A DNA stretch of 64,000 nt, from NCBI GenBank assembly GCA_020137815.1, contig CM035356.1, forward strand, positions 2,418,001 to 2,482,000, written 5' to 3'. The notes below the pieces were generated by a model. It was not told where the DNA came from. It ran no database searches and saw nothing but the letters and a program-made list of their open reading frames with translations. The position numbers were made by a program, and so were the translations under genes. Numbering within the stretch: position 1 is the stretch's first letter; the number at the start of each line of letters is the position of its first letter. Source of the DNA: Hormiphora californensis (taxonomy: Eukaryota; Animalia; Ctenophora). This document shows, one piece after another, positions 4,001 through 23,512 of this stretch.

Positions 4001-6110
4001 GATGGAGTAAATGGGAGGTAGGGAAGCTGAGAGATGGAGTAAATGGGAGGTAGGGTAGCTGAGAGATGGAGTAAATGGGAGGTAGGGAAGCTGAGAGATG
4101 GAGTAAATGGGAGGTAGGGTAGCTGAGAGATGGAGTAAATGAGAGGTAGGGAAGCTGAGAAATGGAGTAAATGGGAGGTAGGGTAGCTGAGAGATGGAGT
4201 AAATGGGAGGTAGGGAAGCTGAGAGATGGATCAAATGGGAGGTAGGGTAGCTGAGAGATGGAGTAAATGGGAGGTAGGGAAGCTGAGAGATGGAGTAAAT
4301 GGGAGGTAGGGTAGCTGAGAGATGGAGTAAATGGGAGGTAGGGAAGCTGAGAGATGGAGTAAATGGGAGGTAGGGTAGCTGAGAGATGGAGTAAATGAGA
4401 GGTAGGGAAGCTGAGACATGGAGTAAATGGGAGGTAGGGTAGCTGAGAGATGGAGTAAATGGGAGGTAGGGAAGCTGAGAGATGGAGTAAATGGGAGGTA
4501 GGGTAGCTGAGGGATGGAGTAAATGGGAGGTAGGGAAGCTGAGAGATGGAGTAAATGGGAGGTAGGTAAGCTGAGAGATGGAGTAAATGGGAGGTAGGGA
4601 AGCTGAGAGATGGAGTAAATGGCAGGTAGGGAAGCTGAGATATGGAGTAAATGGGAGGTAGGAAAGCTGAGAGATGGAGTAAATGGGTGGTAGGGTAGCT
4701 GAGTGATGGAGTAAATGGGAGGTAGGGAAGCTGAGGGATGGAGTAAATGGGAGGTAGGGAAGCTGAGAGATGGAGTAAATGGGAGGTAGGTAAGCTGAGA
4801 GATGGAGTAAATGGGAGGTAGGGAAGCTGAGAGATGGAGTAAATGGGAGGTAGGGTAGCTGAGAGATGGAGTAAATGGGAGGTAGGGAAGCTGAGAGATG
4901 GAGTAAATGGGAGGTAGGGTAGCTGAGAGATGGAGTAAATGGGAGGAAGGGAAGCTGAGAGATGGAGTAAATGGAAGGTAAGGTAGCTGAGAGATGGAGT
5001 AAATGGGAGGTAGGGAAGCTGAGAGATGGAGTAAATGGGAGGTAGGGTAGCTGAGAGATGGAGTAAATGGGAGGTAGGGAAGCTGAGAGATGGAGTAAAT
5101 GGGAGGTAGGGTAGCTGAGGGATGGAGTAAATGGGAGCTAGGGAAGCTGAGAGATGGAGTAAATGGAAGGTAGGTAAGCTGAGAGATGGAGTAAATGGGA
5201 GGTAGGGTATCTGAGAGATGGAGTAAATGGCAGGTAGGGAAGCTGAGATATGGAGTAAATGGGAGGTAGGTAAGCTGAGAGATGGAGTAGATGAGGAGGT
5301 AGGGAAGCTGAGAGATGGAGTAAATGGGAGGTAGGGTAGCTGAGAGATGGAGTAAATGGGAGGTAGGGTAGCTGAGAGATGGAGTAGATGAGGAGTAGGG
5401 TAGCTGAGAGATGGACTAGATAAGGGGTAGGGTAGCTGAAAGATGGAGTAGATGAGGGGTAGGGTAGCTGAAAGATGGAGTAGATGAGGGGTAGGGTAGC
5501 TGAGAGATCGAGTTGATGAGGGGTAGGATAGCTGAGAGATGGAGTAGATCAAGATCAAGAAATATTTGATTCGGCACCGACCCTCTCTCTACTCCTCGAT
5601 GTTTCCCGCCATGTTCTGCAGCTGCTGTGTGAGAGTTGAACGCGAGCGCGTCAATAACATGACACGACATGCAACACGACATGCAACACGACATGCGAGA
5701 TGCGAATTTCATTATTTTGAAGTTTTGTGGGGTTGCGATTTTTGTTTTAGGTCGGAGAGTGAAACGGCCGGTACAGTGGTAAACTAGATTAAAAACTGTA
5801 CGCCTCGTTAGACGGCGATTTTTCCTATCTTGTCTGGTTCCTGAGATATGGCCCCCTAAAGAGTTGGTGTCTCAAACTGCTGAATCGGGGTCACGCGAGG
5901 AAAATTGGCATCAATTTGCGTGTACTGCTCCGTTTTTCACGGGACTTGAACGAGGGTGACGGCAAGAGTCTCACCTATTACATGGTATCCTTACATTGTG
6001 AATTAAATCTAAAATGACTGAGCAGCATGCTTGTTAATGAACCTTGACGTGTTTGCTTGTCTCGCAAGCGCGCTCGCGACTAGCAAACACGACATGCAGT
6101 TCACACCCTG
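1092..6110. mobile_element. 5019-bp Foldback-like non-autonomous element (long TIRs plus internal 32-bp minisatellite)
   Basis: CAGGGTGTGAAC...GTTCACACCCTG termini. About 560 bp of unique outer arms are mirror copies (paired ORF coordinates sum to 7202). 5-bp direct repeat CTATA at 1087-1091 and 6111-6115. No transposase. Confidence 0.9.
1653..5550. repeat. 32-bp minisatellite CTCCATCTCTCAGCT(A/T)CCCTACCTCCCATTTA: ~18 units on the left arm, ~102 inverted units on the right arm
   Basis: Read directly. Orientation flips at a ~20-bp spacer near 2246-2266. The translation has a 32-aa period (three units). Confidence 0.95.
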
Positions 6111-6461: not shown

Positions 6462-7553
6462 CTAATCATCTTTACTGAGCACAGCGACATAACTCCCGGT
6501 CATAGGATCCAGTTTATTGTTCAGCATCCTAACTGCATCCTCCATTGAAACCCTACTGATGGGGTTGGGCAACACCAGCTCACCCTTCTCAACTCTATCC
6601 AAACATGACACCAAGAAACTCTGGAGAGATCCTAGTCGAGACGGGGAGGAGATAAGGGCACTGGGGTTGAGATATTGTAGGCAGATTGATTTGTTGAACA
6701 TTAACTCAGACAGGGCTGGGGAGAGTGGTTGTTGGTAATTTGAAAGGACCACTTTAGCTCCAGCAGTAGCAGCCATGAGGGCCACACCAATAGGCAGGGT
6801 TCCTGGTGAGAGTTGTTTAGATTTAACCACCCCGTCAGGATAAAATGGGCTGGCCTGCTGGAGAGTTATTATGACATTGAATCCCATATTTTCTGACTCA
6901 GAAATGAGTGTCTCTACCAGAGATTTGGGGTTTCTGTGTAGCCATCCCTCAACTGTTGAATCCACCTTGGAGCGATATGGCCCAAACAGAATATCTCGCT
7001 CTCCCTCCTCCCTCATGTAGACCACAACTTTACAACCCCTGGAATCCAGGACCTGAAGTGCCATCTGACCCGCTGGGGTGTGGGCATCACATAGCAACAC
7101 CGTGTCACCTCTCATTGCATGCTGGGTAATCACAAAAACTGGTATCAGAGCTTCAACTGCAACCGCAACGGAATAATCCTCTAGACCAAGGCCACCAATC
7201 TCGACACACAGACATCTCAGCACGATGACAGATGTTGCTAAACCGGAGTGATGGCTGATCTCTGGAACTAGAAAAACAACTCGTGCCCCAACCCTAATAT
7301 CCGTCACCTCGGACCCAACTTGACTGATTGTCCCCACTCCCACTGTCCCCACTCCCTCCGGTTGATCAAAGAAGTCCTGGCCAAACAGGTACCTCATCTG
7401 ATTTGTGAGACGTTTCCGTTGGACAGTACAGCAAGAGACCTGGACCGCCACCTCATGTTCCTGGAGAACTGGCTCAACCTGGCCATAGACTTTGGAGTAC
7501 TCGAAAAAGGGGACAGCTCCAGTGTGGTCAATGCCACACACAACTCGCTTCAT
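6462..7553 (-). CDS. CRYZL1: Quinone oxidoreductase-like / zeta-crystallin-like protein (CRYZL1/Fy-4-like), single exon, 363 aa
   Basis: MDR-family layout (VGTISQVGSEV, GDTVLLCDAHTPAGQMALQV..RGCKVV). The C-terminal part QQPLSPALSELMFNKSICLQYLN resembles CRYZL1 [22 protein letters not shown] from recall. Confidence 0.7.
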   Translation of the reverse strand: MKRVVCGIDHTGAVPFFEYSKVYGQVEPVLQEHEVAVQVSCCTVQRKRLTNQMRYLFGQDFFDQPEGVGTVGVGTISQVGSEVTDIRVGARVVFLVPEISHHSGLATSVIVLRCLCVEIGGLGLEDYSVAVAVEALIPVFVITQHAMRGDTVLLCDAHTPAGQMALQVLDSRGCKVVVYMREEGERDILFGPYRSKVDSTVEGWLHRNPKSLVETLISESENMGFNVIITLQQASPFYPDGVVKSKQLSPGTLPIGVALMAATAGAKVVLSNYQQPLSPALSELMFNKSICLQYLNPSALISSPSRLGSLQSFLVSCLDRVEKGELVLPNPISRVSMEDAVRMLNNKLDPMTGSYVAVLSKDD

Positions 7554-8169
7554 AATTTCATCTCACCTAAGGGTAGAAAGTATTATCACTTCGTCCCTTT
7601 CAAATCGAAAATATCTAAACCCTTGTATGGCGGTCGACGGATAGAAGAATGTGTTCCGACACCGGACAATGCTACGGGTATTTTGCGTATGCTACAGACT
7701 CCTTTAGCGTGGAATAAGGTTGGCAAACGTTGCAGGCCCCTCTAGTCTCTACAGATATGAGGAGACTGAACTCTGAAGCGTATTCAAGGGGATAAGCCTA
7801 TAATAAGGCAGCGGCGTTCAAAGCGAACGGATTTAAGATTTTAAAATTTTAAAACTTGTGAGTCAAAAAACTCAAATTTGTTTAGAATAAGTGCGCGGCA
7901 CGTCAATGCGTCGTTAAACTGTTTAATTTTCGCGTGTTACATTTCTGACATATTTATTGACACCAATTTTTTCCCTGCCCGGGTGATTGCCGAAGGCAAT
8001 CACCCGGGGGGCGCGATTATAATCTGGGTGCCTTGCAGCGTGTTTGCAGGTGCGCGCTGCCAAAAAAGCACACCTAAAACCACTTAGACCGACTTTTTTC
8101 AAACGGCTATAGCCGCGTAACCACATGGCCGATTTGAGTAAACTAAACGGTATCTGATAGAGAATCGAT

Positions 8170-8668: not shown

Positions 8669-8745
8669 GTCTCCTAAGCAACTGTCTTGGTTATCATAGC
8701 AACTGCCTTGGTTACCATAGCAACCACCCTGGTTACCATAGCAAC
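8669..8745 (+). promoter_or_regulatory. Four tandem RFX X-box motifs at 21-bp spacing upstream of CCDC180
   Basis: GTCTCCTAAGCAAC (8669), GTTATCATAGCAAC (8690), GTTACCATAGCAAC (8711), GTTACCATAGCAAC (8732). The last two match the X-box consensus GTNRCC-N0-3-RGYAAC exactly; the first two have one mismatch each. Confidence 0.75.
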
Positions 8746-9117
8746 TAACATCGTATCAGCCAAAAATTGCTCTTAGAGTGCAAAATTCATCGGAAAATCT
8801 GAATTTGAAGCTTAGTCATCAATTTTACACCCATCTGGGGCAGGGAAACACCGCATTATGAATACATAATGCAATAATTCTTGTTCATATTTTGTTTCCT
8901 GGCCCGGAAATTTAAAAATTTAAAATAAAATTCTCGGTTTTAGAAACCAAAAAAGAGAAATTCTCGGTTACTTTTCCCTCTCTTCCGACTTCCACAACTC
9001 GCCCGTGCTCTTTTAAAAGCTTCTCATTAGTACCAAGATTCTTATTTTTCCATCATAATGATTGCCGAGGTTGCCTTTTTGAAGTGATTTGACAAACTCC
9101 ACCCCTTTTCAGACCAA

Positions 9118-12100
9118 ATGTGCGATGTTTCCCCACCAAACCAAGTCAAAAACCTTCCAGATTTTATCTGTCAACCAACCAGAGTATCTGACAGGGTCAG
9201 CAACATTTATTCAAAACAATCGGACCACCACGAGCAAGCATTGATTGAATACCAAAGTAAAATCAAGAATGTGAACTCAAAAATAGAGAGCCGGATCCAG
9301 TACAGGTGTCAGGCGGCTGCCAGGAAACTTGCTGATGTGTACGGCTTCATTCAGGACAACCACATTTCCGCTCTCCGGGATCAGAAGAAATTCTCCTCTG
9401 TTGATCAGTTTAGGGAGATATGGGTTTACATACAACGTGACATGCTTGAGGCATCTGTGATAATCGATCAGCTGGAACATGATCTATTAGTTTCCTGTGA
9501 ACACGTTAGAATCAACAAAATCAACAAAATAATGACAGAACAATTTGAGGTTATCCTCGACTGTGGGAGATGGAGTGAGGCAAAGCTGGTGTCGTTTCTA
9601 GACAGCGAATCCCAAAGACTGAACCAGCTGAGTATTCAAAACTACCGACTTTACTTTTCTCTCACGGGAAACCTCCGGGTCAAATCAGTTGAAACTCTGA
9701 AGAAGTACAAAGAGGAATGGGATAAGCTACTAATGACATGGCGAGACTACCTAGTGAGGGAGAATCTGGTGGTTATCAAGAACATGGTGAATAGCAAGGA
9801 GTATTCAGACCCAGTACAGGTTGCCGAATCAAAACAGGAATGTGTGGATGAGCTACAAAGGCTGGATGGGAAGATTATGGAGATGTTTGGGGATGTGGTA
9901 AAGGGTCTACCGTACAACAAAGCAATGCTGGTTAACTTTAGCCGATCTGTAGAGAGCATCCTGGACAATAAGGATCACATTCGAACCCGGTTCATGGAAA
10001 GATCTCGTGCTCATTTTCATATGCTCATTGATAAGTTAGAGAAGAGGCTTCTCTCGATGAAGGAGTTCTTGTCTAAGGAAGCTTCATGTGATGATGAACA
10101 GTTTCTGAAGACATTTTCTAAATATGTTGGACAAGGTTCTGAGAGTTTTGAGGTGAAATGTGAGCAGCTGATGGATAAATACAACGCAGAGATATCTCGG
10201 AACTTGACTGTCATGGTGGATGTGTTTTCTTATGCCATGCAGTTTCTAAATGGTGTATGTGATCTTTGGGAGAACAATCTGTGTAGCGTGACAACCCACA
10301 AAGCCACCATGACCTCTGAACTGGGTACCATCCGGTCTGAACACCAGAGTGAAGTGAAGATCTTGGAGTACTCCGTCGATAAGAGTATGGAGAAGCTGCC
10401 CCAGACCCCTGAAGTTGCCCAAGTGAACAGGTTGCTGGAACGGATCATGACTCACATGAAAAAGATTCAGGACGGTACAAAACAGGCTTTTAAAAGTTAC
10501 AATGAAGTCCTTGAAGCATACCCAACAACTTGTCAAGATCAGATACGAGAATACACCAAGGAGATGTTGCAGTTTATCGGTCTCCAGTTGGTCAGGAAGA
10601 AAGCCCGGAAATCCCTAACCTCCACTAACTCTAAATTCCTGGAGATTAACGGTCATCAGTACTTCAAATTAGATCAAATCCCGGGATTCTTTGACAAGGA
10701 CGGACCTCCAGCTGATGAGGTTGTGAAGACCAAGTTCTACACAATTGTGGGCCAAGCGAGGGAGTTTCTCATCGGGCACATCAACACTCACGAGAAGAAG
10801 CACAGAGAGGAAACGGAGAGATTGGTAACCAAGCTGAGACTCGAAATGGAGAGGGAGATGGATCTTAGAAAGAGCTTTGTAGCACCCCGGAAGCAGAACA
10901 TCAGAGAAAGTTTCAGTCTCCGGAAAGAGGAGCTAACACAATTCAAGGATGCCTTTGATCTGTTTTACAAGAATACCCAACTCTTTGAGAAGGAGCTATG
11001 TCGTCTCGAGGAGGATCTAAACGTTGAGAGTTTGGAATTTGTTCGATCTACTGAGCAGCGAGTGAAGGACGAGTGTGATAAGCAGCTAAAACAAACAAGG
11101 AGTAAGAAGTTGATTGAAGCTCATGAAACTTTTGAAAAGGTCATGTTCGATATTGAAAACAGGCTTCCGGAGATTTCCAAGACGTCAATTGCTAACGTGG
11201 ACAAAGCTGCGAAACAGATGAAACAAAATGAAGATTCATTTGTTCGATTCGCCGAGGCGGGCAACTACAGCTTCGGTCCAAAAACCAGATTTCATTTTGA
11301 GTTTTGTGAGCTAAGAGAGAAGGCCAAAACTCTCACAACTCAGACAAAGCGTACTATCAAACAATTGGAGGGTATACGAGTCAAGAAGCTGACAAGTGTA
11401 ACCCAAACCTACAAGATACACTACAAACACTGTCTGTTGGGACTCTACTTCAGTGAAATGCGGTCTTGTCATCTTTCTAGGACTCGGCTGAAACTCAAAT
11501 CGGTCCTGAGTCACGGAGAAAAAGACCTCATGATCGTGAATGATAAAATGAAGGAAGTGAGAGATATTATCACCTCTATCACCGATTGTACTATGGCTGA
11601 GGTCCCTGAAAAGTCTGAACAGGTCATGGTCTCCTTCACAGATCTATTCGCTAAACTCAAATCCACCATCAACTTCTTCAACCACCGCTGTAGCTCAATT
11701 TCGGTGCCCCACAAATCCTCCCTGGCGGAGATCAAACAAAAGTACGACAACTTCGGAACGAATGATGCAAGTTTGTGTGAGACTGTATCGTTTACACAGG
11801 AGATAGTGGCCATCACATCGGTCAAACCGCTCACCGTACATAGCGGATCTGAAGACGATCTCGAGGGAAAGGAGAATAACTGGGTGATTGATCGGCATGA
11901 GGTGGACAGGAAGTATATCCAGGGTCGAATATCCTGTGTTTATGGAATTGGAGCAAACATTCTCGATATCCCCAATAATCCATGGGCCGGGGTTTGTGCC
12001 ACTCTCACAAGTACCCCCAACTCCTATTGGCTGAGCAAGAACGCAGACGGGCTTCAGGCGTTGAAAGAGCTCAAGGAAAAGAAGGAGAAGATATTTGAGC

Positions 12101-13473
12101 AACAGGATAACCCTGAGAAGGAGATGGTGAGACGGAAGAGTACTAGAAGTGAGAGCACCGCTCCGACCAATAAGAACTGGAACACTCTGAAGATGGTCCT
12201 TATCCCTGAGAATGAGGAGATAAACGTAGAGAAGACTAAGAGTATTCTCCCTGCCATTGATCCCAATATACTGAAGGACAAGAGGAAGGATTCTACCGCA
12301 CAGTGGAACATGGAGGCTGCGATGAAAGTCACAAAAACCGCCAAAATCCTCACAACCGAGGCGATAAACAAGAAAAAGAGGTCGACGTTTTTCAAAAGTC
12401 AAGTCAAGGTGAAAATATACGACTTTTTAACGATGGATGAGACTGAGCTGAAGGGCATTGTGTTTGAGCCAGCTGCATTCTTCAATCTTGACAAACGGAA
12501 TTACAAGGTGGATCAAGTTTGTGAGTCGATTGATAGTGTCACCGAGAAAACAAAGTTCTTCCTTTTTCACCTTCAAGAAGATTTCGTTATTTCTTGCATC
12601 ATCTTCTACCGGCAGAAGCACATGAACATCAAATATCCGGACAGAGTGCAGCCCAATCTTGATTCTGCTGTCAATAGTTTCGTGAAAACTACCAAGGGCT
12701 ACCTGGACCGGGTAAACAGTGCGTGTTCTGAAAATGTTGCTAAGATCAAGAGCCTTCTCAAGAAGATCTATGCTACTCTGAAGGACATGCCCAAGGTGTT
12801 CTTTTCCCACGTTCTCACCCAATCATCTAACAACTTCATTTTGTTCTACCAGCACCATCTAGAGGAGCACACTACCCTAATGACTGTGAACAAGGAGGAG
12901 AAGAGGATCCTCTTCCACCGTCTTACACCCTCCCTGGAACACCCTCAACGGGCTGCCGAGCTGGCTGAGCTGTGCGAGTCAATGCAGAAAAGTAAAATTG
13001 CTGGAACTATAACTGAGTTGTATAACTCTGGAGTCTCTCATATGGAGGAGCTGAGGGACAGGTTTGTAGCAACGATCGAGGCAACTGCAACGGATATGAT
13101 ATCGGTATGCGAGACTGTAATTCAAATCGAGGATATACGAAAAGTGGGATCCACCGAGTCGAACTCCCTCGAGGTCAAGAAGAGACTCCGGCAAAATTTA
13201 AATCTAAACACCGTGACGAATGAAGGAAACTATAACTCGGTTCTTCAGGCGTTCTCCCGGATGAATGGGACCCAGCATAAAATGAAAAACACTGTTCTGG
13301 AGGCCAAAACCAATGCGATCAAAGATTTCGAGACTCTGTTTTCTAAAATCGTCAGTGAATATACAGAGTTATTTGAGGACTCTGTGAGAGAGGAGAAGGA
13401 CTGGGTGTTCAAGTGGGAAAAATGTCTCAAGGAGGTACGAGATGGACAGGCTTTGTCCAGAGAAGTGTTGTGA
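9118..13473 (+). CDS. CCDC180: Coiled-coil domain-containing protein 180 (CFAP76-like motile-cilium protein), intronless, 1451 aa
   Basis: Long coiled-coil ORF with a C-terminal DUF4456-like signature (FYRQKHMNIKYPDRV, RLTPSLEHPQRAAELAEL, VIQIEDI, EEKDWVFKWEKCLKEV) that matches CCDC180 from recall. Confidence 0.75.
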   Translation: MCDVSPPNQVKNLPDFICQPTRVSDRVSNIYSKQSDHHEQALIEYQSKIKNVNSKIESRIQYRCQAAARKLADVYGFIQDNHISALRDQKKFSSVDQFREIWVYIQRDMLEASVIIDQLEHDLLVSCEHVRINKINKIMTEQFEVILDCGRWSEAKLVSFLDSESQRLNQLSIQNYRLYFSLTGNLRVKSVETLKKYKEEWDKLLMTWRDYLVRENLVVIKNMVNSKEYSDPVQVAESKQECVDELQRLDGKIMEMFGDVVKGLPYNKAMLVNFSRSVESILDNKDHIRTRFMERSRAHFHMLIDKLEKRLLSMKEFLSKEASCDDEQFLKTFSKYVGQGSESFEVKCEQLMDKYNAEISRNLTVMVDVFSYAMQFLNGVCDLWENNLCSVTTHKATMTSELGTIRSEHQSEVKILEYSVDKSMEKLPQTPEVAQVNRLLERIMTHMKKIQDGTKQAFKSYNEVLEAYPTTCQDQIREYTKEMLQFIGLQLVRKKARKSLTSTNSKFLEINGHQYFKLDQIPGFFDKDGPPADEVVKTKFYTIVGQAREFLIGHINTHEKKHREETERLVTKLRLEMEREMDLRKSFVAPRKQNIRESFSLRKEELTQFKDAFDLFYKNTQLFEKELCRLEEDLNVESLEFVRSTEQRVKDECDKQLKQTRSKKLIEAHETFEKVMFDIENRLPEISKTSIANVDKAAKQMKQNEDSFVRFAEAGNYSFGPKTRFHFEFCELREKAKTLTTQTKRTIKQLEGIRVKKLTSVTQTYKIHYKHCLLGLYFSEMRSCHLSRTRLKLKSVLSHGEKDLMIVNDKMKEVRDIITSITDCTMAEVPEKSEQVMVSFTDLFAKLKSTINFFNHRCSSISVPHKSSLAEIKQKYDNFGTNDASLCETVSFTQEIVAITSVKPLTVHSGSEDDLEGKENNWVIDRHEVDRKYIQGRISCVYGIGANILDIPNNPWAGVCATLTSTPNSYWLSKNADGLQALKELKEKKEKIFEQQDNPEKEMVRRKSTRSESTAPTNKNWNTLKMVLIPENEEINVEKTKSILPAIDPNILKDKRKDSTAQWNMEAAMKVTKTAKILTTEAINKKKRSTFFKSQVKVKIYDFLTMDETELKGIVFEPAAFFNLDKRNYKVDQVCESIDSVTEKTKFFLFHLQEDFVISCIIFYRQKHMNIKYPDRVQPNLDSAVNSFVKTTKGYLDRVNSACSENVAKIKSLLKKIYATLKDMPKVFFSHVLTQSSNNFILFYQHHLEEHTTLMTVNKEEKRILFHRLTPSLEHPQRAAELAELCESMQKSKIAGTITELYNSGVSHMEELRDRFVATIEATATDMISVCETVIQIEDIRKVGSTESNSLEVKKRLRQNLNLNTVTNEGNYNSVLQAFSRMNGTQHKMKNTVLEAKTNAIKDFETLFSKIVSEYTELFEDSVREEKDWVFKWEKCLKEVRDGQALSREVL

Positions 13474-13648
13474 GATTTGAGTGAAGAGTGAACTATCTTG
13501 TCTGATTTTAGTTTCTTTTTAAACTTTTACAAGTTTACATTTCAATTTCAAATATCGCTGTGTTTTTATTCCACCCATTCCTGGACTCAGTACTAACTCT
13601 CATCTCTATCTCGATTTAACAACTCACATCACTCTTTCCATGACTTAG

Positions 13649-15752
13649 ATGACGGATGAACCGTTTGGCGAAACAATCCCAAGCCAGCAACCAAACATTT
13701 CATTCAAAAAACGGGTCAGTTTAAATTCAAGGTTAATCTCTTTTTGTAATGTTCTAGCCCTCCTTTACATTTGTAAAAGAGGGCGGGGCGGGGAAACAGG
13801 GTTGAGAAAGGCAAATCTCTTTTATCACCTGCCTCATTTAATTTGATCGCTCACAATAGACCCCATTAAGGCCAGAGGGGGGGGTCGACGGGTTTTTTGG
13901 GGTGTTTTTTGAGGTATACGTTATATGAAAGCGCTGGGCAAGGCGGATCGATTAGAACAGACGTCATCGATGTTGCGCGCACCGTTTGGCCAAAATTTGG
14001 GGGTTAACATTTGGCCTATAATGGATGTTAACCCCTATAAATCAGGATTGGTGGGGTCTAGAACATCCATCATTGTACCAAAGGCTTCGTCTTGTCTTGA
14101 TACAACTTCCTGAAAAGTTTTATGTCGTTACTCCAACTACTTCTTGATTTTTTTGGGGTTTACAAAATATGCGGAAAAAGCCCTTTTTGCCTCTAATTTT
14201 GCTCTTTTTTGGGACATCCTGCCTCACTTCCTGAAATAACGGCTAGGACTCAGACCTTGCCGTTTGGCATAGTTGTTCTAGAGACCGTGTTCTTCAAATT
14301 TGATGTAGCGATTTTTGATTAAGGCCCCCGTTCAAAAATTATAGGGGTTAACATTTGTTTTGTCCATGAAAATTTTATGTAAACCCCTATAATTTTTGAA
14401 CGGGGGCCTTAATCAAAAATCGCTACATCAAATTTGAAGAACACGGTCTCTAGAACAACTATGCCAAACGGCAAGGTCTGAGTCCTAGCCGTTATTTCAG
14501 GAAGTGAGGCAGGATGTCCCAAAAAAGAGCAAAATTAGAGGCAAAAAGGGCTTTTTCCGCATATTTTGTAAACCCCAAAAAAATCAAGAAGTAGTTGGAG
14601 TAACGACATAAAACTTTTCAGGAAGTTGTATCAAGACAAGACGAAGCCTTTGGTACAATGATGGATGTTCTAGACCCCACCAATCCTGATTTATAGGGGT
14701 TAACATCCATTATAGGCCAAATGTTAACCCCCAAATTTTGGCCCAACGGTGCGCGCAACATCGATGACGTCTGTTCTAATCGATCCGCCTTGCCCAGCGC
14801 TTTCATATAACGTATACCTCAAAAAACACCCCAAAAAACCCGTCGACCCCCCCCTCTGGCCTTAACACCCCTTCACATCCCACAGAGACATGTAGCAGTG
14901 CACAACAGTACGAATATATTCCAGCAGTGGGAGTTTAATGATTTAACTCAACCCTCCCAGTCCACACCACCACCCCCACACCAGGAACTTGTTCCTGATA
15001 CACACCACGATCCTCAACCTGATACACTACCACCTGCAGCAGCTCTCACACCACCAGAGAGGAGAAGCAAAAGGAAGAAAACTGCAAGAACGAACTATGT
15101 GTTCTTCGTTGAACAACCACCACGACCATCACACCCCATTGAGAAACAGAAAAGTAGTAAAACGCCTAAAAAGAAGCAGAAAAAAGGAAAACCAAAGAAA
15201 GTCGTTGCAAAACCTAAGAAGCCGAAAATGGCATCAACAAAAAAGAAACGAAAGCGAAAAAAAGACGAAGAGGATATTTCTGAAGATGATGAACCGGCGG
15301 AAAAGAGACGAAACTACGGGAAAATAAAGATCACACTCACTCGGCCAATCCACTCCATCCCCTACAGATCCCTGCCAAGGGCTTTCACAGAACACAGCTC
15401 ACGACAGAAACGGCGAAAAATAGCACCACCTCCTCCTCCAGTCGGCAACCCGGAAGATCCATTTGCGTTTCTGAGCATTCTCGACAGAATCGAGTTCATA
15501 TCTCCGGAAAATGCGTGTCAGAAACTTTCAGGAGAGTTTGATAGAGCTGAGAGGGAGTTGTCTAGGTTAGATCAGAAGTGGAGTCATTGGCCTGAGAGGT
15601 TTGCGGGTGTGACTAATGGGCAAGATGATACTGGACAGGGACAAGATGATATTCCCAGTGGAGAGGGTGAGTTACCAGATGATATTGGAGAGGGTGAGTT
15701 ACCAGCTGATATTGGAGAGGAGGGTGAGTTGCCAGTAATTGTTGTCCTGTGA
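13649..15752 (+). CDS. Uncharacterised Lys/Pro-rich, probably nuclear protein (~310 aa; exons 13649-13714, 14886-15752)
   Basis: Phase-0 donor CGG|GTCAGT and acceptor CACAG|AGA join MTDEPF...FKKR to the 284-aa ORF. Basic NLS-like tracts and a C-terminal GEGELPxDI repeat. Confidence 0.7.
13870..14861. mobile_element. 992-bp palindromic Kolobok-like MITE inside an intron
   Basis: TTAA TSD (13866-69, 14862-65), GG...CC termini, ~485-bp arms with few mismatches, ~22-bp spacer. Confidence 0.85.
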
Positions 15753-16010
15753 AGTAGTTCTGGAGTAAAACAGTAGTTGTACAGACCTGGACAGTGGACT
15801 GTGGACATGTTTTCTATGGATGAATTAGTATTCGTCCGAGTTGTGAATTGTTTTGAAATCCATGGTTTTTAGTAAGTTGTTGCCGTTTTATTTAAAATCC
15901 ATTTCGTACCAAACTCAAAAGTTTTAAATTAACCGTCTTACCCATACTAAACTATATTTCCCTAACAAAACACTACATTCACTTCACCTCTCACCTAATA
16001 GTAGTTAACC

Positions 16011-16298
16011 ATGGGGGAAGGACCAGCTCACCATAGCAAGGCCAGAGGCAGTAGGGCAAGTCACGCTAAGTTCTACTCTGATTTTGTCCGGGGGAGTATA
16101 TCAGCGGGGGAAACTCGCCGGAGAAGCTCCCGAAATATGGTCAAGAAAAGTATTTGGAGTAAAATATTTGGAAAATGTGTGCTCTGTGATTGTACCAGTA
16201 CAGCAGAATCAACAGGATCGAAGATAGTAGTGATTGAAAATAAGGCTGCTACACACCAGGAGGAAGAGACTGGTGAGAGTAGCACCACATGTCAATGA
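16011..16298 (+). CDS. Small orphan protein, 95 aa, single exon
   Basis: ATG-initiated ORF with a good context (ACCATGG), preceded by a branch point and acceptor and followed by a T-rich UTR. No recognisable homology. Confidence 0.5.
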   Translation: MGEGPAHHSKARGSRASHAKFYSDFVRGSISAGETRRRSSRNMVKKSIWSKIFGKCVLCDCTSTAESTGSKIVVIENKAATHQEEETGESSTTCQ

Positions 16299-16504
16299 AC
16301 GTTCCCCACATTTCTAATAATAGGTTTTATCGTGTGTTTGCTTTTTTGTAATACTTTCCCGTGTGTTCATTATTTGTAATTCTTGCTGCCGATATTTTGT
16401 AACTTTGTGTAAATTCATTTCGTACTTCATTATATCACGATTGTTTTATTCCACGCCTGACTACACCTAATAACCCCATCTCTTCCACATCTAGCAGCTG
16501 TATA

Positions 16505-19500
16505 ATGTGTGGGGTAAAGGTGGTTATAATGGATATGAACAAGCACCTAGGGTGTGAGGTGTGTGAGGTGATAGCGGATATCCTCCTAAATGAGCTGTCA
16601 GTGTTTGGGGATCAGACTACTCAACATGGCCTCATGCTCGCCTGCCTTTCCTCACACACTGAGGTAAATAATGTGCTATACCCTTGTGTGACTCACACCG
16701 CATTTGGTAGATCAACTATAACAAGGTCTCCTAGTAGTGGTAGCTCCCAAAGCTTGCCTTGCTCGAACCTCTCTCACCACGCCCTACACATATTGTAAAG
16801 CTCAGTAATGAAACCTTTCAGATTATGTTTCCCCTACAAGTCACTAAAGAGCAGACCCTGTCAACTCTCAAGCGAAGTATTGAAAGTCTTGTCAAGTATT
16901 ACAGGTACAGTCAAATTGGGTTGGTTGGGGGTAGGGGTGAGGGAGGCGAGGGGTTTGGGATATAAGTGGTTCCGGGTTAGGGTTTAGAGGGAGAGGTGGA
17001 TGGATTAGCTAATGTTCGCCAAGAATTTAATAGTTCAAATCTTCAAACAATGTAGTTTTGCCAAGAATTTACTTATTAAATTGCCACTACTCCAGGGACA
17101 CGCCATTGGTGAAAGAGTGTTCTTCGACTGCTGTGTCACAGTGCCTTGAATTTGCCTTCCAAGCCAGCTCTAAACTACTCTCCAACACTTACAATCAGGT
17201 TAGTGGGAGAGGGAGAGGGAGAGAAACGAGAGTGTTCCTCTCCGACACTTGGAAGAGGGGGGGGGGAAGGAGGGAGAGAATATTGTTGCTAACTAAACAT
17301 CCTGCATAGACCCTCCTTTGATCCTAGGATTGAGGGAGCTCCCTAACCCTCCTATAATAATTTAAGTACAATTATCTGTTATATAGGTGACCGGTGGAAC
17401 AGAGGTTCTGATGATCACGTGTAACCCAACTTTTAAAACTACCGTCAACCAAGTTATGGGCAGCCAGAATCTCGCAGGGGTAAATTCACAAAATAAGAAA
17501 TTCACAAAACAACAAATACATGGAATACATATTTCACTGATAGACTCTATCCGATACACCTTCTGATAATGTTAAATACCCCTTGTTAGAGAGTGACAGT
17601 GCTAACTTTAGGAGAGGACACTAGATCAGACGAGATAGAATGTCTGACAGAGATAGATGATGTCTTAGTACCACCTGACCGTATCACCCTGGAGGTAATT
17701 GTCTATCGACTTGACTTACTTGACTTAAGGCGGGTGGAATTCCCGAACGCCTTGAACAAGCTTTCTCCACGCATCACGTTCCTCCATAACTGAAGCTATC
17801 TCCTTCACGTCTCCAAGACCCGTATCTTGCCGTAGAACATCCACAAAGGTTTTCGAGGGCCTGCCACGCTTACATTGACCGTGAGTAGGCTCCCAAAGGA
17901 GGACTTTGTGGAGTGTCAGCTCTGAGTGTCGTTGTGCATGTCCGGCAAGTCGTAGTCTATCGGGTGAGATTCATTGTTTAGGTTGCCTGGCTAGACTGTG
18001 TTTCGGGCGCCCCGCACCCTACAAATGTAAAGGGAGGGTTTTTTTTAGAACATAACAATGTTTAGGTACTGGCACAAGAGACAAGCTGATCAAGTCCAAC
18101 ATATCGGCTATATATTTTTTTTGGGGCATTAATATATCGGCTATATTAGTTCGCCCCTGAACTGTACCTATATCTCAGTGTCCCTCCCCTCTCTCAGAGA
18201 ACGATTAGAAAGTGGTTGTTCAGCTCTGATCTCCGGATGTTAAAACTGGAACTCCCAAACGGTGTATCTCTATCTTGTGATATTGTTCCCACCCACATAA
18301 ACCCACACCGTCTATCTCTGGAAGCCCAGGAGAGTGTTGTGTTTGATCCTGCAAAGATTGAGGGTAATAGGGGGCAGGAGCCAGTGTTGCTAAAAGCTAC
18401 AAAGGTCTTCCGAGCAGGTACAGGTTGATGAAGTTTCACTAATTATAGTAACCCCCCCATCCCCAAACCGGGATATGTGTAGTTACCCACCCCCACCCCC
18501 ACAGCAGCTGACCATGTACCCTGCTTCTAATATATCGTCCCCAGACCAGATATGCGAGTCTGTATTGTTTGGAAGTGGGAGGATTCTTCTCCCGGCTACC
18601 CATTGGTCCATTGATTGGGACGAGTTGGAGCAGATACAACAACGATTTGGTGCACTCTGTAAATCACTTTGCGAAAAGGTACTTGGTGCTGCTTCCTAGA
18701 GAGTTACTGCTATTCATTATTATCAGTAGCCAGTATCCTTGGTATCGAAGACACCTCACATCGCGGCCTTCGTTTGGTGCGCTTTGCGCGCCGGCAAGGG
18801 AGGGGTAACTTCGTTACCAACCAGTATCCCAAATTACAAATATCTTGTCATGGCCTGTGATTTGTGCCACACTTTCTGTCATGGTGGCACACCTTTTCTT
18901 GAAACTAAACGTAGCGCGCGGCACTTCTGTCATGCTGAAAGTTTTCAAAGGATGACTCTACCTTGACAGGGCGGGATCCACGCCGCGCACACGCTCACTC
19001 AGAGAGGTCCTCAAACATCAGATTCAGACCAATTCGGGGGCAATTTCTCATTTGCCGCATACGGCGTCTAGACGGCGTCGCACCGCCGTCTAGACGGTGT
19101 CTAGACGGGTTTTGATAAAATCAGCTAAAAACGGTACCAAAATTGCTTGAAACGGGTTATAGACGGTATCAGACGGGTTATAGACGGTATCAGACGGTGT
19201 TGCGACGGTATCAGACGGTCTCTAGACGGTACCGTCCCGGTGTCTAGACGGTGTCTGGACGGTCTCTAGACGGTACCCGTCCAAAGTTGAGACGGCACGT
19301 CTAAAAATTGTACCAGACGTTGAGACGGACTTTTAGAACTCCGTCTGTATTTCAGACGGAGTTTTAAAAGTACGTCTCAACGCAGTCTAAAGGAAAATCG
19401 ATGAAAGTACCGTCTAGACAACGTCTCAACTGAAACCGGTCAACATACCGTCTAGACAACGTCTAAACAGAATCTCGCGATTCAGTTTCAAATACCGTCT

Positions 19501-21209
19501 AGACAACTTCTCCAGCAATTTCGATACGAATACCGTCTAAACAACGTCTAGACAACGTCTTAAGCGAATCCGATACAGATACCGTTTAGACAACGTCTCA
19601 ATACCTACACTATCTATCACTGATAGTATCAGCCATAGACAGTATCTCACAGTTGTATTACAACGCTTGTTATAAAATAAAATAAAAAAGGTTTGAACAA
19701 AACAACTGTTTTGGTATCTCCACATTCACTCTTACATCCAGCTATCGCGTTGTAATACAACTGTGAGATACTGTCTATGGCTGATACTATCAGTGATAGA
19801 TAGTGTCGGTATTGAGACGTTGTCTAGACGGTATCTGTATCGGATTCGCTTAAGACGTTGTCTAGACGTTGTTTAGACGGTATTCGTATCGAAATTGCTG
19901 GAGAAGTTGTCTAGACGGTATTTGAAACTGAATCGCGAGATTCTGTTTAGACGTTGTCTAGACGGTATGTTGACCGGTTTCAGTTGAGACGTTGTCTAGA
20001 CGGTACTTTTATCGGTTTTCCTTTAGACTGCGTTGAGACGTACTTTTAAAACTCCGTCTGAAATACAGACGGAGTTCTAAAAGTCCGTCTCAACGTCTGG
20101 TACAATTTTCAGACGTGCCGTCTCAACTTTGGACGGATACCGTCTAGAGACCGTCCAGACACCGTCTAGACACCGGGACGGTACCGTCTAGAGACCGTCT
20201 GATACCGTCGCAACACCGTCTGATACCGTCTATAACCCGTCTAGAGACCGTCTGATACCGTCTATAACCCGTTTCAAGCAATTTTGGTACCGTTTTTAGC
20301 TGATTTTATCAAAACCCGTCTAGACGGTATACCGTCTAGACACCGTCTAGACGGTGGTGCGACGCCGTCTAGACGCCGTATGCGGCAAATGAGAAATTGC
20401 CCAATTCGGGCTGAGGGATGGCCTCGAAGGACCCCTGACCCAGGATCCTTTTATTTATTTCTTGTGACAATTTCGAATCTTCTCACTGAAGAAACTTTGT
20501 TTCAGGACCGCGTTTTGCTCTGCCAGGGCTGTACCGAGGAGCAAGTTCAGGGGCTGTTCATGATCCTACCTAATCCAAATGGGAGTGCTTTAGTTAGACC
20601 AGTCCTGTGTTCCGAACTAACCCTTCCCCTGGCTAGGACCCAGTGTGCCACACCGGACAGTGAAACCGTAGCAATGATAGGTTTGTGTTGTTCTATCCAG
20701 AACCTTTTTTATCATAAAATGACTAATTGGTACATAATATTGACACTTTTCAAAATTACGACCCCAGACTCTATACTATTCCTGATGATAACCGGCACTT
20801 TCCAGTACCTAATATTCTTTTTTCTAAATGTATCTACTGACTCTAAACATCCATTGATTTCAGATGATTCTCTGTCACTGCTTGAGGTCTCTCCTGACCC
20901 CTACTCGCCCCTGAACCACACCTCCCATCTCCACGCCTTCCTTCAGACAAGGAAGCAGCAGTGTGAAAGTAGACCTCATTACCAGCAACAACCCAACAAT
21001 CGACAGACGGGAATTCAGCAAAAGGTTAAAATTAATAATCGCACATACAATTCACAATTCAAATAATCTCGGCCTGTTTTCTCTGGGGTCAATCAAAAGG
21101 CAGGGACATGATCGCTAAAATATTCTCTGTTTCTCAGGGACCAGAGCAACTATCACGATTAACGTATAACGGTGCACGTGCCATGGAAAACTCTCTCTAC
21201 AACGGCTGA
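16505..21209 (+). CDS. M1AP: Meiosis 1 arrest protein, 10 exons, ~434 aa
   Basis: Exons 16505-16663, 16822-16904, 17096-17198, 17387-17479, 17590-17694, 18198-18417, 18545-18678, 20506-20680, 20864-21024, 21138-21209, all phases consistent. ICESVLFGSGRILLPATHWSIDWDELEQIQQRFGALCKSL and YSPLNHTSHL match M1AP (LCESLTYG..ILRPTSCWQLDWDELETNQQHFHALCHSL; YNPLHVQSHL) from recall. Confidence 0.85.
17709..17954 (-). mobile_element. 5'-truncated RTE-clade LINE in M1AP intron 5
   Basis: Minus strand encodes RLAGHAQRHSELTLHKVLLWEPTHGQCKRGRPSKTFVDVLRQDTG...WRKLV..*, followed by an (AAGTC)n tail. 8-bp TSD GTCTATCG at 17701-17708 and 17955-17962. Confidence 0.85.
19039..20401. mobile_element. 1363-bp palindromic element with 9-bp TSD (Merlin/Mutator-like) in M1AP intron 7
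   Basis: GGCAATTTCTC...GAGAAATTGCC termini, TSD CAATTCGGG (19030-38, 20402-10), ~630-650-bp arms full of (CC)GTCTAGAC(GG) subrepeats, ~80-bp spacer. Confidence 0.85.
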
Positions 21210-21348
21210 GAGAAACACAAAGCTGATTCAACAGCACATCAAATAGGTCAACTATCGGACAATTAATATATCGGACCGGGAATCTCAGTATATAGCTCTG
21301 GCGATGTCAGATCTAGTTAAATCTTCATTCAGTCTGTTAGATTCCTGT

Positions 21349-23512
21349 TCAAAAGCACAGGAATTTGATAGCTCCGCTCCTCTTCGCACATCGACACACC
21401 TTACTATCGCTCTGTGGGAAGAGACGCGTTAGAAAACAGAGTGATTTTGTTACTGTTCGAGTAGATATTAAAGTGTTAGAGCAAATACAGGGTGTCCCAT
21501 ATATTCTGTGGGTCGGTTGGCGAGCTGTCACGCAAAAACGGTGATAGTTGTGTGAAAACAAACTACGGGAGTGTGCTGGATTAATTCCTTCCTAACTGAT
21601 GGCTTTGTTTTGAAATTAAATTTCAAAAGTTCATTTTTCATGAATGAACATTCCTGTCATTCATTCGTGAATTCTGAAATATTGTTTACCTTGAGTAAAA
21701 AACTTTTCTTTGGCTCGAAATTATCTTTCCAATGAGCACCATAAAAATCAAATTGAAGCACCGGATCGCATGGCAGGTGAGAAAATGCAAATGCATGATT
21801 TTGGCCATTCCTGCGACTTTCAATCAGCTGTATCACCGCTACTTTCAGTTCAATCCTTTTAAAAGTTTGGGTGAACATTGGTGAAGATAAGATCTTTGCT
21901 CACAAGAAAAATCAAGGTCAAAACTCAAAGTTCATTTTTCATATTTGGTAGTTCATTCCACTCATTCAGGAACAAACATCCCTAAGGTGACGAAAAGGTT
22001 TGGGTTTTGTTTGGCCCATGTCCTGAAACGACAGAGAGGTGTAAAAACGTGTTTCCGAGCTAGTTAGTGGGTGTCCATGTGATCATTATGATATCTGACA
22101 CCTTCGCTGAGCCATAATTAAGAGATTTTCTCAAATTCAAAAATGGGATACGAGTATTCTGCGATTGGTATCGTGCACCAATAACAAGAGATCCCATAGC
22201 ACCTCAAAAATTATGATTAGCTAAATGAAATGAGTTGATTAACGATTGAAAATGTTCGTTTAGTCCGACTTTACATTGGTTTTAATCTTTTCAATCGTAA
22301 ATCAACTCATTTCATTTAGCTAATCATAATTTTTGAGGTGCTATGGGATCTCTTGTTATTGGTGCACGATACCAATCGCAGAATACTCGTATCCCATTTT
22401 TGAATTTGAGAAAATCTCTTAATTATGGCTCAGCGAAGGTGTCAGATATCATAATGATCACATGGACACCCACTAACTAGCTCGGAAACACGTTTTTACA
22501 CCTCTCTGTCGTTTCAGGACATGGGCCAAACAAAACCCAAACCTTTTCGTCACCTTAGGGATGTTTGTTCCTGAATGAGTGGAATGAACTACCAAATATG
22601 AAAAATGAACTTTGAGTTTTGACCTTGATTTTTCTTGTGAGCAAAGATCTTATCTTCACCAATGTTCACCCAAACTTTTAAAAGGATTGAACTGAAAGTA
22701 GCGGTGATACAGCTGATTGAAAGTCGCAGGAATGGCCAAAATCATGCATTTGCATTTTCTCACCTGCCATGCGATCCGGTGCTTCAATTTGATTTTTATG
22801 GTGCTCATTGGAAAGATAATTTCGAGCCAAAGAAAAGTTTTTTACTCAAGGTAAACAATATTTCAGAATTCACGAATGAATGACAGGAATGTTCATTCAT
22901 GAAAAATGAACTTTTGAAATTTAATTTCAAAACAAAGCCATCAGTTAGGAAGGAATTAATCCAGCACACTCCCGTAGTTTGTTTTCACACAACTATCACC
23001 GTTTTTGCGTGACAGCTCGCCAACCGACCCACAGAATATATGGGACACCCTGTAGTAGCAGAGAATCAGAGAAAATCTCGTAATTGTCCCGCGGGGGCCC
23101 AACTAAAAGGTTGAAAAAAATGTTCGATATAAAAGCCAGCTAATCAGAAGAATTATATGTTATAAGCTGGGGGAAATGAAGTGTGTAAGTTCGGTACCTG
23201 TATGACTGAGTTGATGGGGTAGAACTTTCCAGCAGGGCTGGTACACCCCTGTTGTTGTGAGGCCGCCACTGGCTGGTAGTTCCTTGCTGCGTGGGCCCGA
23301 CTCTAGGTGAATAATGGTTAATAAACCTAATTTAGTAATTTGGGTCCTGATAATTCATAATACTGCAGAGTGAAGGAGCTAAAATCTTGATATGTTGTTA
23401 CCTTGAGGTTTAGTTGAAAGGCAGAGTCTCCGTTTGTTATTCGTCCAGCGAGACTGAGGGAAACAAGGACGCACAGGACAGCTGCAATCATCAAAACACA
23501 TCGGTTCATCAT
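21349..23512 (-). CDS. Small secreted 4-Cys peptide precursor, 92 aa, 3 exons (23512-23402, 23302-23198, 21411-21349)
   Basis: Spliced product MMNRCVLMIAAVLCVLVSLSLAGRITNGDSAFQLNLK|SRAHAARNYQPVAASQQQGCTSPAGKFYPINSVIQ|SDSKVCRCAKRSGAIKFLCF*. Signal-peptide-like N-terminus, canonical phase-0 introns. Confidence 0.75.
21488..23052. mobile_element. 1565-bp palindromic Tc1/mariner-type MITE in intron 2 of the peptide gene
   Basis: TA TSD, CAGGGTGTCCCA...TGGGACACCCTG termini, ~765-bp near-identical arms (mirror ORFs sum to 44540), ~35-bp spacer. Confidence 0.9.

What the first reader, a model, noticed from the sequence alone, without database searches (positions are those of the whole stretch)
9100..21209. 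Operon-like cluster CCDC180 - orphan - orphan - M1AP: a candidate trans-spliced germline/flagellar polycistron
Seen: four same-strand genes separated by only 175, 258 and 206 bp (stop to ATG). Each ATG lies 0-10 nt behind a pyrimidine-rich 3' splice acceptor (AG ending at 9112, 13648, 16001, 16494), and the short spacers leave little room for promoters or upstream donor exons. Known: unpaired acceptors before ATGs in tightly packed genes mark SL trans-splicing and operons (nematodes, tunicates; SL also occurs in ctenophores). CCDC180/CFAP76 is a motile-axoneme protein and M1AP a meiotic crossover factor. Inference: one RFX-driven transcript co-expresses flagellar and meiotic genes, and the two orphans may be unknown gametogenesis proteins.
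Basis: partly seen in the sequence, partly recalled or inferred. Interest (0 to 1): 0.85.

Follow-up and report, generated by a model that had tools for sequence, protein, structure and literature searches.

The report
Comb-jelly four-gene operon candidate
Four comb-jelly genes (a cilium protein, two unknown proteins and a meiosis protein) sit head-to-tail under 260 bases apart and the first carries the animals' standard spliced leader in relatives' RNA, so they are likely made partly as one long RNA that leader splicing would cut apart, while a shared sperm-or-meiosis purpose remains untested.

Summary
The anatomy is real. There are four same-strand coding genes: CCDC180/FAP76, two orphans under purifying selection, and M1AP. 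They lie 175, 258 and 206 nt apart, each ATG 0-10 nt behind an acceptor. RNA contigs of relatives (2 of 4 runs) join a non-genomic leader exactly at 9113; it caps many other comb-jelly mRNAs, so CCDC180 is trans-spliced. But acceptor-next-to-ATG is the ordinary comb-jelly gene start (13 of 18 leader-capped contigs; two flanking non-cluster genes too), so it says nothing about operons. What does point to an operon is room: RNA cover ends within 96 and about 63 nt of the next acceptor, and full RFX X-boxes occur only upstream of gene 1. Not shown: a leader on genes 2-4, a read-through RNA, a single promoter, synteny or co-expression. Best reading: a leader-resolved operon, perhaps with internal promoters (0.5); separate overlapping promoters 0.33; the full RFX germline/flagellar polycistron 0.12. 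No paper found describes ctenophore operons, but three key papers were not held. The scan noted similar candidates in other animals, none in a comb jelly.

The parts
6462..7553 (-). Divergent intronless ADH_N (zinc-binding dehydrogenase/CRYZL1-like, name recalled) gene; control: acceptor 13 nt before its ATG although it heads away from the cluster
8690..8745 (+). Three tandem RFX X-boxes (8690, 8711, 8732), 367-422 nt upstream of the first acceptor; likely promoter of the unit
   Evidence: 5 matches in the window, 0.58 expected, 0 of 100 shuffles reach 5
9093..9112 (+). Trans-splice acceptor of gene 1; leader joined at 9113
   Evidence: loose ends of 24 nt (X1) and 13 nt (X4) before 9111; leader verified
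9118..13473 (+). CCDC180/FAP76, intronless, 1451 aa, central-apparatus protein of motile cilia
   Evidence: 97% to a Pleurobrachia bachei protein over the region searched
13474..13648 (+). Spacer 1 (175 nt): T-rich 3' UTR covered by RNA to 13552, 9-mer at 13566, C/A-rich tract, TAG acceptor
13649..15752 (+). Orphan gene 2, model 13649-13714 + 14886-15752, 310 aa, basic and proline-rich; exon 1 has no RNA cover; the intron is 171 nt plus a 1-kb palindrome
13866..14865 (.). Palindromic insertion (489-nt arms, 100% complementary) in gene 2's intron
15753..16004 (+). Spacer 2 up to the tandem TAG acceptors 16001/16004; holds a GTAAGT donor at 15872 with A at -1
16011..16298 (+). Orphan gene 3, intronless, 95 aa; covered by RNA contigs in 3 of 4 runs
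16299..16497 (+). Spacer 3: T-rich 3' UTR covered to 16414 (to about 16431 by bin depth), 9-mer at 16446, acceptors 16494/16497
16505..21209 (+). M1AP, 10 exons, 441 aa; one RNA contig runs from 18679 into sequence like the 20506 exon
19038..20402 (.). Palindromic insertion in M1AP intron 7
21285..23512 (-). Predicted convergent small gene with a signal-peptide-like start; control: acceptor 13 nt before its ATG; last exon unverified, stop 76-195 nt from M1AP's stop depending on the model

Best explanation
The four genes likely form an operon that spliced-leader trans-splicing would resolve into single mRNAs, possibly with extra internal promoters. Shown: in relatives the leader is joined to CCDC180 at 9113, the mature CCDC180 RNA ends soon after its stop, and RNA cover of genes 1 and 3 stops within 96 and about 63 nt of the next acceptor. 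Inferred: polymerase starts near the X-boxes, the roughly 300-400 nt upstream of 9113 is an outron, 3' cleavage in the T-rich part of each spacer frees the upstream mRNA, and leader splicing at 13648, 16001/16004 and 16494/16497 recaps the next one. Membership probably reflects packing of functionally unrelated genes rather than a dedicated germline programme (inferred).
For: Leader at 9113 in 2 of 4 runs; the other two had no cover there. The leader is genuine: 23 of 23 public loci continue with AG, 19 lie at contig ends, and 3 are followed by a GTAAG donor as SL RNA genes are. It is absent from the window. X4's 4418-nt contig starts 13 nt before 9111 and ends near 13506; an X1 contig ends at 13552. 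The gaps of at most 96 and about 63 nt match the roughly 100-nt gap of C. elegans operons (PMC7986045 passages). Two of three stop-to-ATG spacers are under the 250-bp cut-off used for chaetognath operons (PMC12460157 passages). If genes 2-4 had outrons as long as gene 1's apparent one, their starts would fall inside the upstream coding sequence. Full X-boxes occur upstream of gene 1 and in 0 of 3 spacers. Hydra shows that such a spacer alone suffices (PMC3273482 passages).
Against: No leader was seen on genes 2-4: no listed contig reached those acceptors, 19 loose ends were not shown, and 0 of 23 leader loci match the window. Acceptor-near-ATG is the default (13 of 18 contigs, 16 distinct genes) and also marks the divergent and the convergent neighbour. 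The convergent gene's predicted stop is only 76-195 nt from M1AP's, so tight packing occurs where no polycistron is possible (unverified model). A 9-mer in spacers 1 and 3 also lies upstream of the divergent gene and could be a promoter element. Three RFX half-sites lie 276-333 nt upstream of gene 3's acceptor. 0 of 3 spacers hold AATAAA or ATTAAA. All RNA evidence is from assembled contigs of relatives, which cannot show true ends.
Confidence: 0.5

Rival explanations
1. Four independent genes in a locally compact region. Each has its own promoter inside the upstream gene's 3' end and a short outron that the common leader replaces; there is no polycistron.
For: Leader use is general in ctenophores. 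Both flanking non-cluster genes have the same start. The convergent neighbour is packed as tightly. The 9-mer shared with the divergent gene's upstream region (post-hoc p about 0.02) may be a promoter motif. RFX half-sites lie upstream of gene 3. In tunicates one leader serves monocistronic genes too.
Against: Only 96 and about 63 nt are left between RNA cover and the next acceptor, so three promoters in a row would have to overlap upstream genes. No full X-box lies in the spacers.
Confidence: 0.33
2. One reading: one RFX-driven transcript co-expresses flagellar and meiotic genes in the germ line, and the orphans are gametogenesis proteins.
For: X-box triplet upstream of gene 1. FAP76/CCDC180 is a central-apparatus protein. 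M1AP promotes crossovers in mice (abstract start of PMC12162868). [quoted passage not shown]
Against: No expression or synteny data could be obtained. [quoted passage not shown] The orphans have no family hit. Chaetognath operons are enriched for protein metabolism and broad expression.
Confidence: 0.12
3. Part of the pattern is ordinary cis-splicing: the 16001/16004 acceptor pairs with the donor at 15872 (a 130-nt 5' UTR intron of gene 3) or with the donors at 15667-15724 in gene 2.
For: GTAAGT at 15872 and three GGTGAG sites in gene 2. The intron length would be typical of this locus.
Against: 9 of 9 M1AP donors have G at -1 and 15872 has A. X1 cover runs on past 15667 to a loose end at 15697 with no joint to 16004 listed. 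The gene-2 donors are phase 1 and would not read into gene 3's conserved frame. This explains one junction at most.
Confidence: 0.05

Closest known systems
Ctenophore spliced-leader trans-splicing (Hormiphora californensis, PMC8527503, passages read)
   Same: A leader of about 45 nt with the same first dozen bases and the TTGAG end (compared by eye), added just before the ATG.
   Different: The middle of the leader differs (a variant). That paper's main text has 0 occurrences of operon or polycistron.
Hydra RFC140-flp bicistronic operon (PMC3273482, passages read)
   Same: Non-bilaterian; short T-rich spacer ending in an acceptor; unrelated genes; intronless downstream cistron (gene 3 here).
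   Different: Hydra's was proven by reporters (no promoter in the spacer, acceptor required). Here there are four genes and no such test.
Chaetognath, Ciona and Oikopleura operons without a dedicated leader (PMC12460157 and PMC7986045, passages read)
   Same: One leader type may serve first and downstream genes; operons are called by distance plus leader. This cluster has a leader on one gene and 2 of 3 stop-to-ATG spacers under 250 bp.
   Different: Gaps here (at most 96 and about 63 nt) are longer than Ciona's median 1 bp and Oikopleura's about 30 bp. Downstream leaders are not shown.
C. elegans SL2 operons (PMC7986045 passages)
   Same: Gap of about 100 nt between the upstream 3' end and the next acceptor.
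   Different: No evidence for a second, downstream-specific leader; no AATAAA in any spacer.

Membership tests
SL-resolved eukaryotic operon (Hydra/tunicate/chaetognath type) | Same-strand genes with very short gaps | tested here: met
   175, 258 and 206 nt stop to ATG; at most 96 and about 63 nt from RNA cover to acceptor in spacers 1 and 3; spacer 2 not measured
SL-resolved eukaryotic operon (Hydra/tunicate/chaetognath type) | The lineage has SL RNA genes and leader-capped mRNAs | tested here: met
   3 SL-gene-like loci and 19 contig-end loci of 23; PMC8527503
SL-resolved eukaryotic operon (Hydra/tunicate/chaetognath type) | Downstream genes receive the leader at the spacer acceptor | tested here: inconclusive
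   Leader seen only at gene 1; no listed contig reached 13648, 16001/16004 or 16494/16497
SL-resolved eukaryotic operon (Hydra/tunicate/chaetognath type) | Polycistronic precursor across spacers | tested here: inconclusive
   No listed contig bridges a spacer (tables cut); precursors are short-lived and contigs cannot show absence
SL-resolved eukaryotic operon (Hydra/tunicate/chaetognath type) | One promoter; none in the spacers | not testable with these tools
   Needs CAGE, chromatin or reporter data; X-boxes only upstream of gene 1 are a hint
C. elegans SL2-type operon | A dedicated second leader for downstream genes | not testable with these tools
   No leader read on genes 2-4
C. elegans SL2-type operon | AAUAAA-type signal about 100 nt upstream of the acceptor (feature recalled) | tested here: not met
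   0 of 3 spacers hold AATAAA or ATTAAA; the ctenophore poly(A) signal is unknown to me
CCDC180/CFAP76/FAP76 | DUF4455 plus DUF4456 architecture | tested here: met
   FAP76 hit; table in PMC6548120
M1AP | Full-length similarity to named M1AP proteins | tested here: met
   Profile E 8.8e-56, residues 5-418; names; 44% to the Bolinopsis protein XP_063683131 over 351 aa
RFX ciliary regulon | X-box near the start of transcription | tested here: met
   Three X-boxes at 8690-8745 for gene 1; none for genes 2-4; the true start site and RFX binding are untested

The most novel reading that the evidence does not exclude
Comb jellies have true operons, and this one puts a motile-cilium gene, two new genes and a meiotic crossover gene under one RFX promoter, with a short spacer motif marking where the precursor is cut and re-capped. 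Operons would then extend to the sister group of all other animals, and read-through behind a strong promoter would be a route by which new ctenophore genes get expressed.
Probability: 0.12. Interest if true: 0.7.

Novelty: new member of a known kind. Interest (0 to 1): 0.42.

Why it matters
Leader trans-splicing is known in ctenophores, but four searches listed no paper that describes ctenophore operons. If the cluster is one, operons arose in yet another animal phylum. Ctenophore promoter annotation and single-cell marker interpretation would then need to allow for read-through units. The locus gives exact acceptors and RNA ends for a direct test with long reads and with the ctenophore chromatin data already published (PMC12221973 passages). 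The plain operon is an expected consequence of leader splicing, so the surprise is moderate; only the germline/flagellar coupling would be striking, and it has no support yet.

Tried and rejected
No whole genome was held, so no genome-wide spacing distribution could be made. Only four runs were offered, all contigs of relatives, with word shares of 0.00-0.06. Uncovered parts are not evidence: 13606-13760 in 4 of 4 runs, 15826-15963, and most M1AP exons. M1AP had one short junction contig while genes 1-3 were covered more widely, but contigs cannot rank genes. A poly(A)-ended X1 contig matching 8915-8954, 30 nt behind an AATAAA, was considered as an upstream cistron. Its 5' part is not in the window, only 40 AT-rich bases match, and unrelated contigs pile up at 8853-8892, so it was set aside as a repeat match. 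Pairing between spacer RNA and the SL RNA: 0 of 6 regions beat shuffles (best 29 of 200). The relative search for gene 3 in metagenome contigs found none among 281 pattern hits. The whole-protein homologue search for CCDC180 found none among 3748 candidates; the regional search found 1. The orphans had no Pfam hit at E 0.1 and only chance-level PDB hits (E 0.3 or worse). The protein atlas gave no answer. No full homologue search and no structure prediction was run on the orphans, so 'orphan' is only weakly tested. A resemblance of gene 2's helical part to the sororin C-terminus (recalled) was not supported by Pfam. Synteny and expression: the readable supplements of three Mnemiopsis papers had no CCDC180 or M1AP entry (one scanned file unread). 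Derelle 2010, the Pleurobrachia genome paper and the 2018 single-cell paper were not held and may bear on novelty.
Full report
Setting. No whole genome was held. The lineage is a cydippid comb jelly by inference: a region of gene 1 is 97% identical to a protein filed under Pleurobrachia bachei, and gene 4's best distant hit is a Bolinopsis microptera protein. Earlier scan notes on this genome say the same (unchecked AI notes).

The observation. Gene 1 (9118-13473, intronless, 1451 aa) has DUF4455 and DUF4456 and matches FAP76. PMC6548120 lists that architecture as FAP76/CCDC180 of the ciliary central apparatus (passages). Gene 4 is a 10-exon, 441-aa model with GT-AG introns and an open frame. 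It matches a profile of 31 homologues of 460-600 aa at 8.8e-56, and 6 of 10 clusters looked up are named meiosis 1 arrest protein. One RNA contig supports the splice over the palindrome in intron 7. Genes 2 and 3 are real coding genes. Of the substitutions listed for relatives, 19 of 26 and 8 of 9 fall on third codon positions (p 4e-5 and 1e-3; only the listed, best-supported sites were used). Gene 3's listed coding indel is 3 nt; gene 2's are in frame upstream of its C-terminal repeat. Gene 2's first exon is a model without RNA cover. 4 of 4 starts pass an acceptor filter met by 86 of 2170 ATGs (post hoc).

Trans-splicing is shown for gene 1. Four runs were offered, all assembled contigs of relatives; pieces were mostly 90-95% alike, and X4 is more distant and only guessed to be RNA. 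In X1 and X4 a contig begins with 24 and 13 non-genomic bases directly before the AG at 9111-9112; X2 and X3 had no cover there. This sequence is not in the window at up to 3 mismatches. A 20-base part of it found 23 metagenome loci, and all 23 continue with AG. 19 lie within 29 nt of a contig end, 3 are followed by GTAAG like an SL RNA gene, and 1 is internal before a PHD-like reading frame. 14 of the 23 come from one assembly. By eye it shares its start and its TTGAG end with the Hormiphora leader in PMC8527503 (passages), which is on at least 56% of long reads.

Why the acceptors do not prove an operon. Of the 19 contig-end loci, 18 have a frame of 60 codons or more, and 13 of these 18 start within 13 nt of the leader; two pairs are the same gene, leaving 16 distinct genes. 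The divergent gene upstream (ATG 7553) and the predicted convergent gene downstream (ATG 23512) both have an acceptor 13 nt before the ATG. The first heads away from the cluster; the second lies about 3.5 kb behind an OATP gene. The feature is the ordinary comb-jelly gene start. As in tunicates, where one leader serves monocistronic and operonic genes, only distance and promoter data separate the two (PMC7986045 passages).

What does favour an operon. X4's 4418-nt contig spans gene 1 from the leader to about 13506, and X1 cover ends at 13552, 96 nt before the next acceptor. Gene 3's cover ends at 16393 (X3), 16414 (X1), and about 16431 or later by bin depth, about 63 nt before M1AP's acceptor (the last figure is an estimate). 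Contig ends are lower bounds for the 3' UTR, so the free space is at most this. Three X-boxes lie 367-422 nt upstream of gene 1's acceptor, and there is no full X-box in any spacer. If that distance reflects an outron, equivalent starts for genes 2-4 would lie inside the upstream coding sequences. C. elegans operons have a median gap of about 100 bp, chaetognath operons were called under 250 bp plus a leader on one gene, and in Hydra such a spacer alone builds an operon.

What counts against it or is missing. No leader was seen at 13648, 16001/16004 or 16494/16497. Gene 3's contigs begin at 16018, 16032 and 16063, no listed contig bridges a spacer, and the tables were cut (19 loose ends and 26 pieces not shown; 9 pieces). 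None of the 23 leader loci matches the window. The predicted convergent gene ends 76-195 nt from M1AP's stop, so packing is tight here regardless of strand, though that last exon is unverified. A 9-mer occurs exactly 3 times in the window: in spacer 1, in spacer 3 and upstream of the divergent gene, always on the sense strand (p about 0.02 after allowing for the choice of word, with five or six regions). In the spacers it sits just behind the RNA ends, as a cleavage element would; its place before the divergent gene fits a promoter or outron element instead. It does not decide the matter. Spacer 2 holds a donor-like GTAAGT with a non-standard -1 base. Three RFX half-sites in gene 2's C-terminal repeat are probably a by-product of codons but could serve gene 3. 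No spacer has a canonical poly(A) hexamer.

The germline/flagellar idea. CCDC180 is needed wherever 9+2 cilia beat, in a comb jelly above all in somatic comb rows (own knowledge; RFX is reported up-regulated in ctenophore ciliated cells, passage). M1AP acts in meiotic crossover formation in mice (search listing and abstract start of PMC12162868). Spermatocytes could transcribe both (own knowledge), and chaetognath germline markers are mostly trans-spliced or operonic. But I obtained no expression, synteny or family evidence for the orphans. This part stays a hypothesis.

Comparison and novelty. It works like the Hydra, tunicate and chaetognath operons. Membership is not established, because downstream leaders, a precursor and a single promoter are untested. 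Searches listed no paper on ctenophore operons; the main texts of PMC8527503 and PMC12221973 contain 0 occurrences of operon. Three likely sources were not held, and I recall Derelle 2010 only as reporting several ctenophore leaders. Papers seen: passages of PMC8527503, PMC3273482, PMC12460157, PMC7986045, PMC6548120, PMC12221973 and bioRxiv 10.1101/2022.11.11.515474; supplement term searches only for PMC10876535, PMC9170174 and PMC6278862; listing only for PMC12162868. The scan holds similar candidates from other animals and none from comb jellies or for this protein.

Verdict. Observation confirmed; trans-splicing shown for the first gene in relatives; operon about as likely as not (0.5, or 0.62 with the single-promoter germline version included); germline/flagellar coupling unsupported. 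New member of a known kind, interest 0.42.

Noticed in passing
window 7709-7717 (-), 13566-13574, 16446-16454: The only three exact copies of one 9-mer in the window all lie on the sense strand 49-151 nt upstream of a start acceptor; in two cases just behind the RNA 3' ends. It could be a comb-jelly cleavage, outron or promoter element.
   Followed up: partly
window 13866-14865, 19038-20402, 21481-23059, 1092-6110: Large near-perfect palindromic insertions, at least two of them in introns; an RNA contig supports splicing over the one in M1AP.
   Followed up: partly
window 21285-23512 (-): Predicted small gene with a signal-peptide-like N-terminus converging on M1AP; several exon models fit and none is verified.
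   Followed up: partly
window 9118-13473 and 6462-7553: CCDC180 (4.4 kb) and the divergent dehydrogenase-like gene are both intronless, although CCDC180 is intron-rich in vertebrates (recalled); possibly old retrocopies.
   Followed up: no
L012, L013, L018 (601 onward): Genomic SL RNA genes of this leader variant: leader, GTAAG donor, two predicted hairpins around a T-rich, Sm-like stretch (fold of L012).
   Followed up: partly
L020 (601 onward): A leader copy inside DNA, behind a T run and in front of a PHD-like reading frame; looks like a leader-capped retroelement copy.
   Followed up: no
window 15667-15735: Gene 2's C-terminal 27-nt repeat carries three strong donor-like sites and three RFX half-sites; the repeat differs in the relative X1.
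   Followed up: partly
window 8853-8954: A short hairpin-containing element matched by unrelated contigs in 4 of 4 runs, followed by an AATAAA; one contig ends in poly(A) at 8954. Probably a widespread small repeat.
   Followed up: partly
window 27055 to about 34000 (-); 34010-34023: OATP/SLCO transporter gene, with a perfect palindromic X-box at 34010.
   Followed up: no
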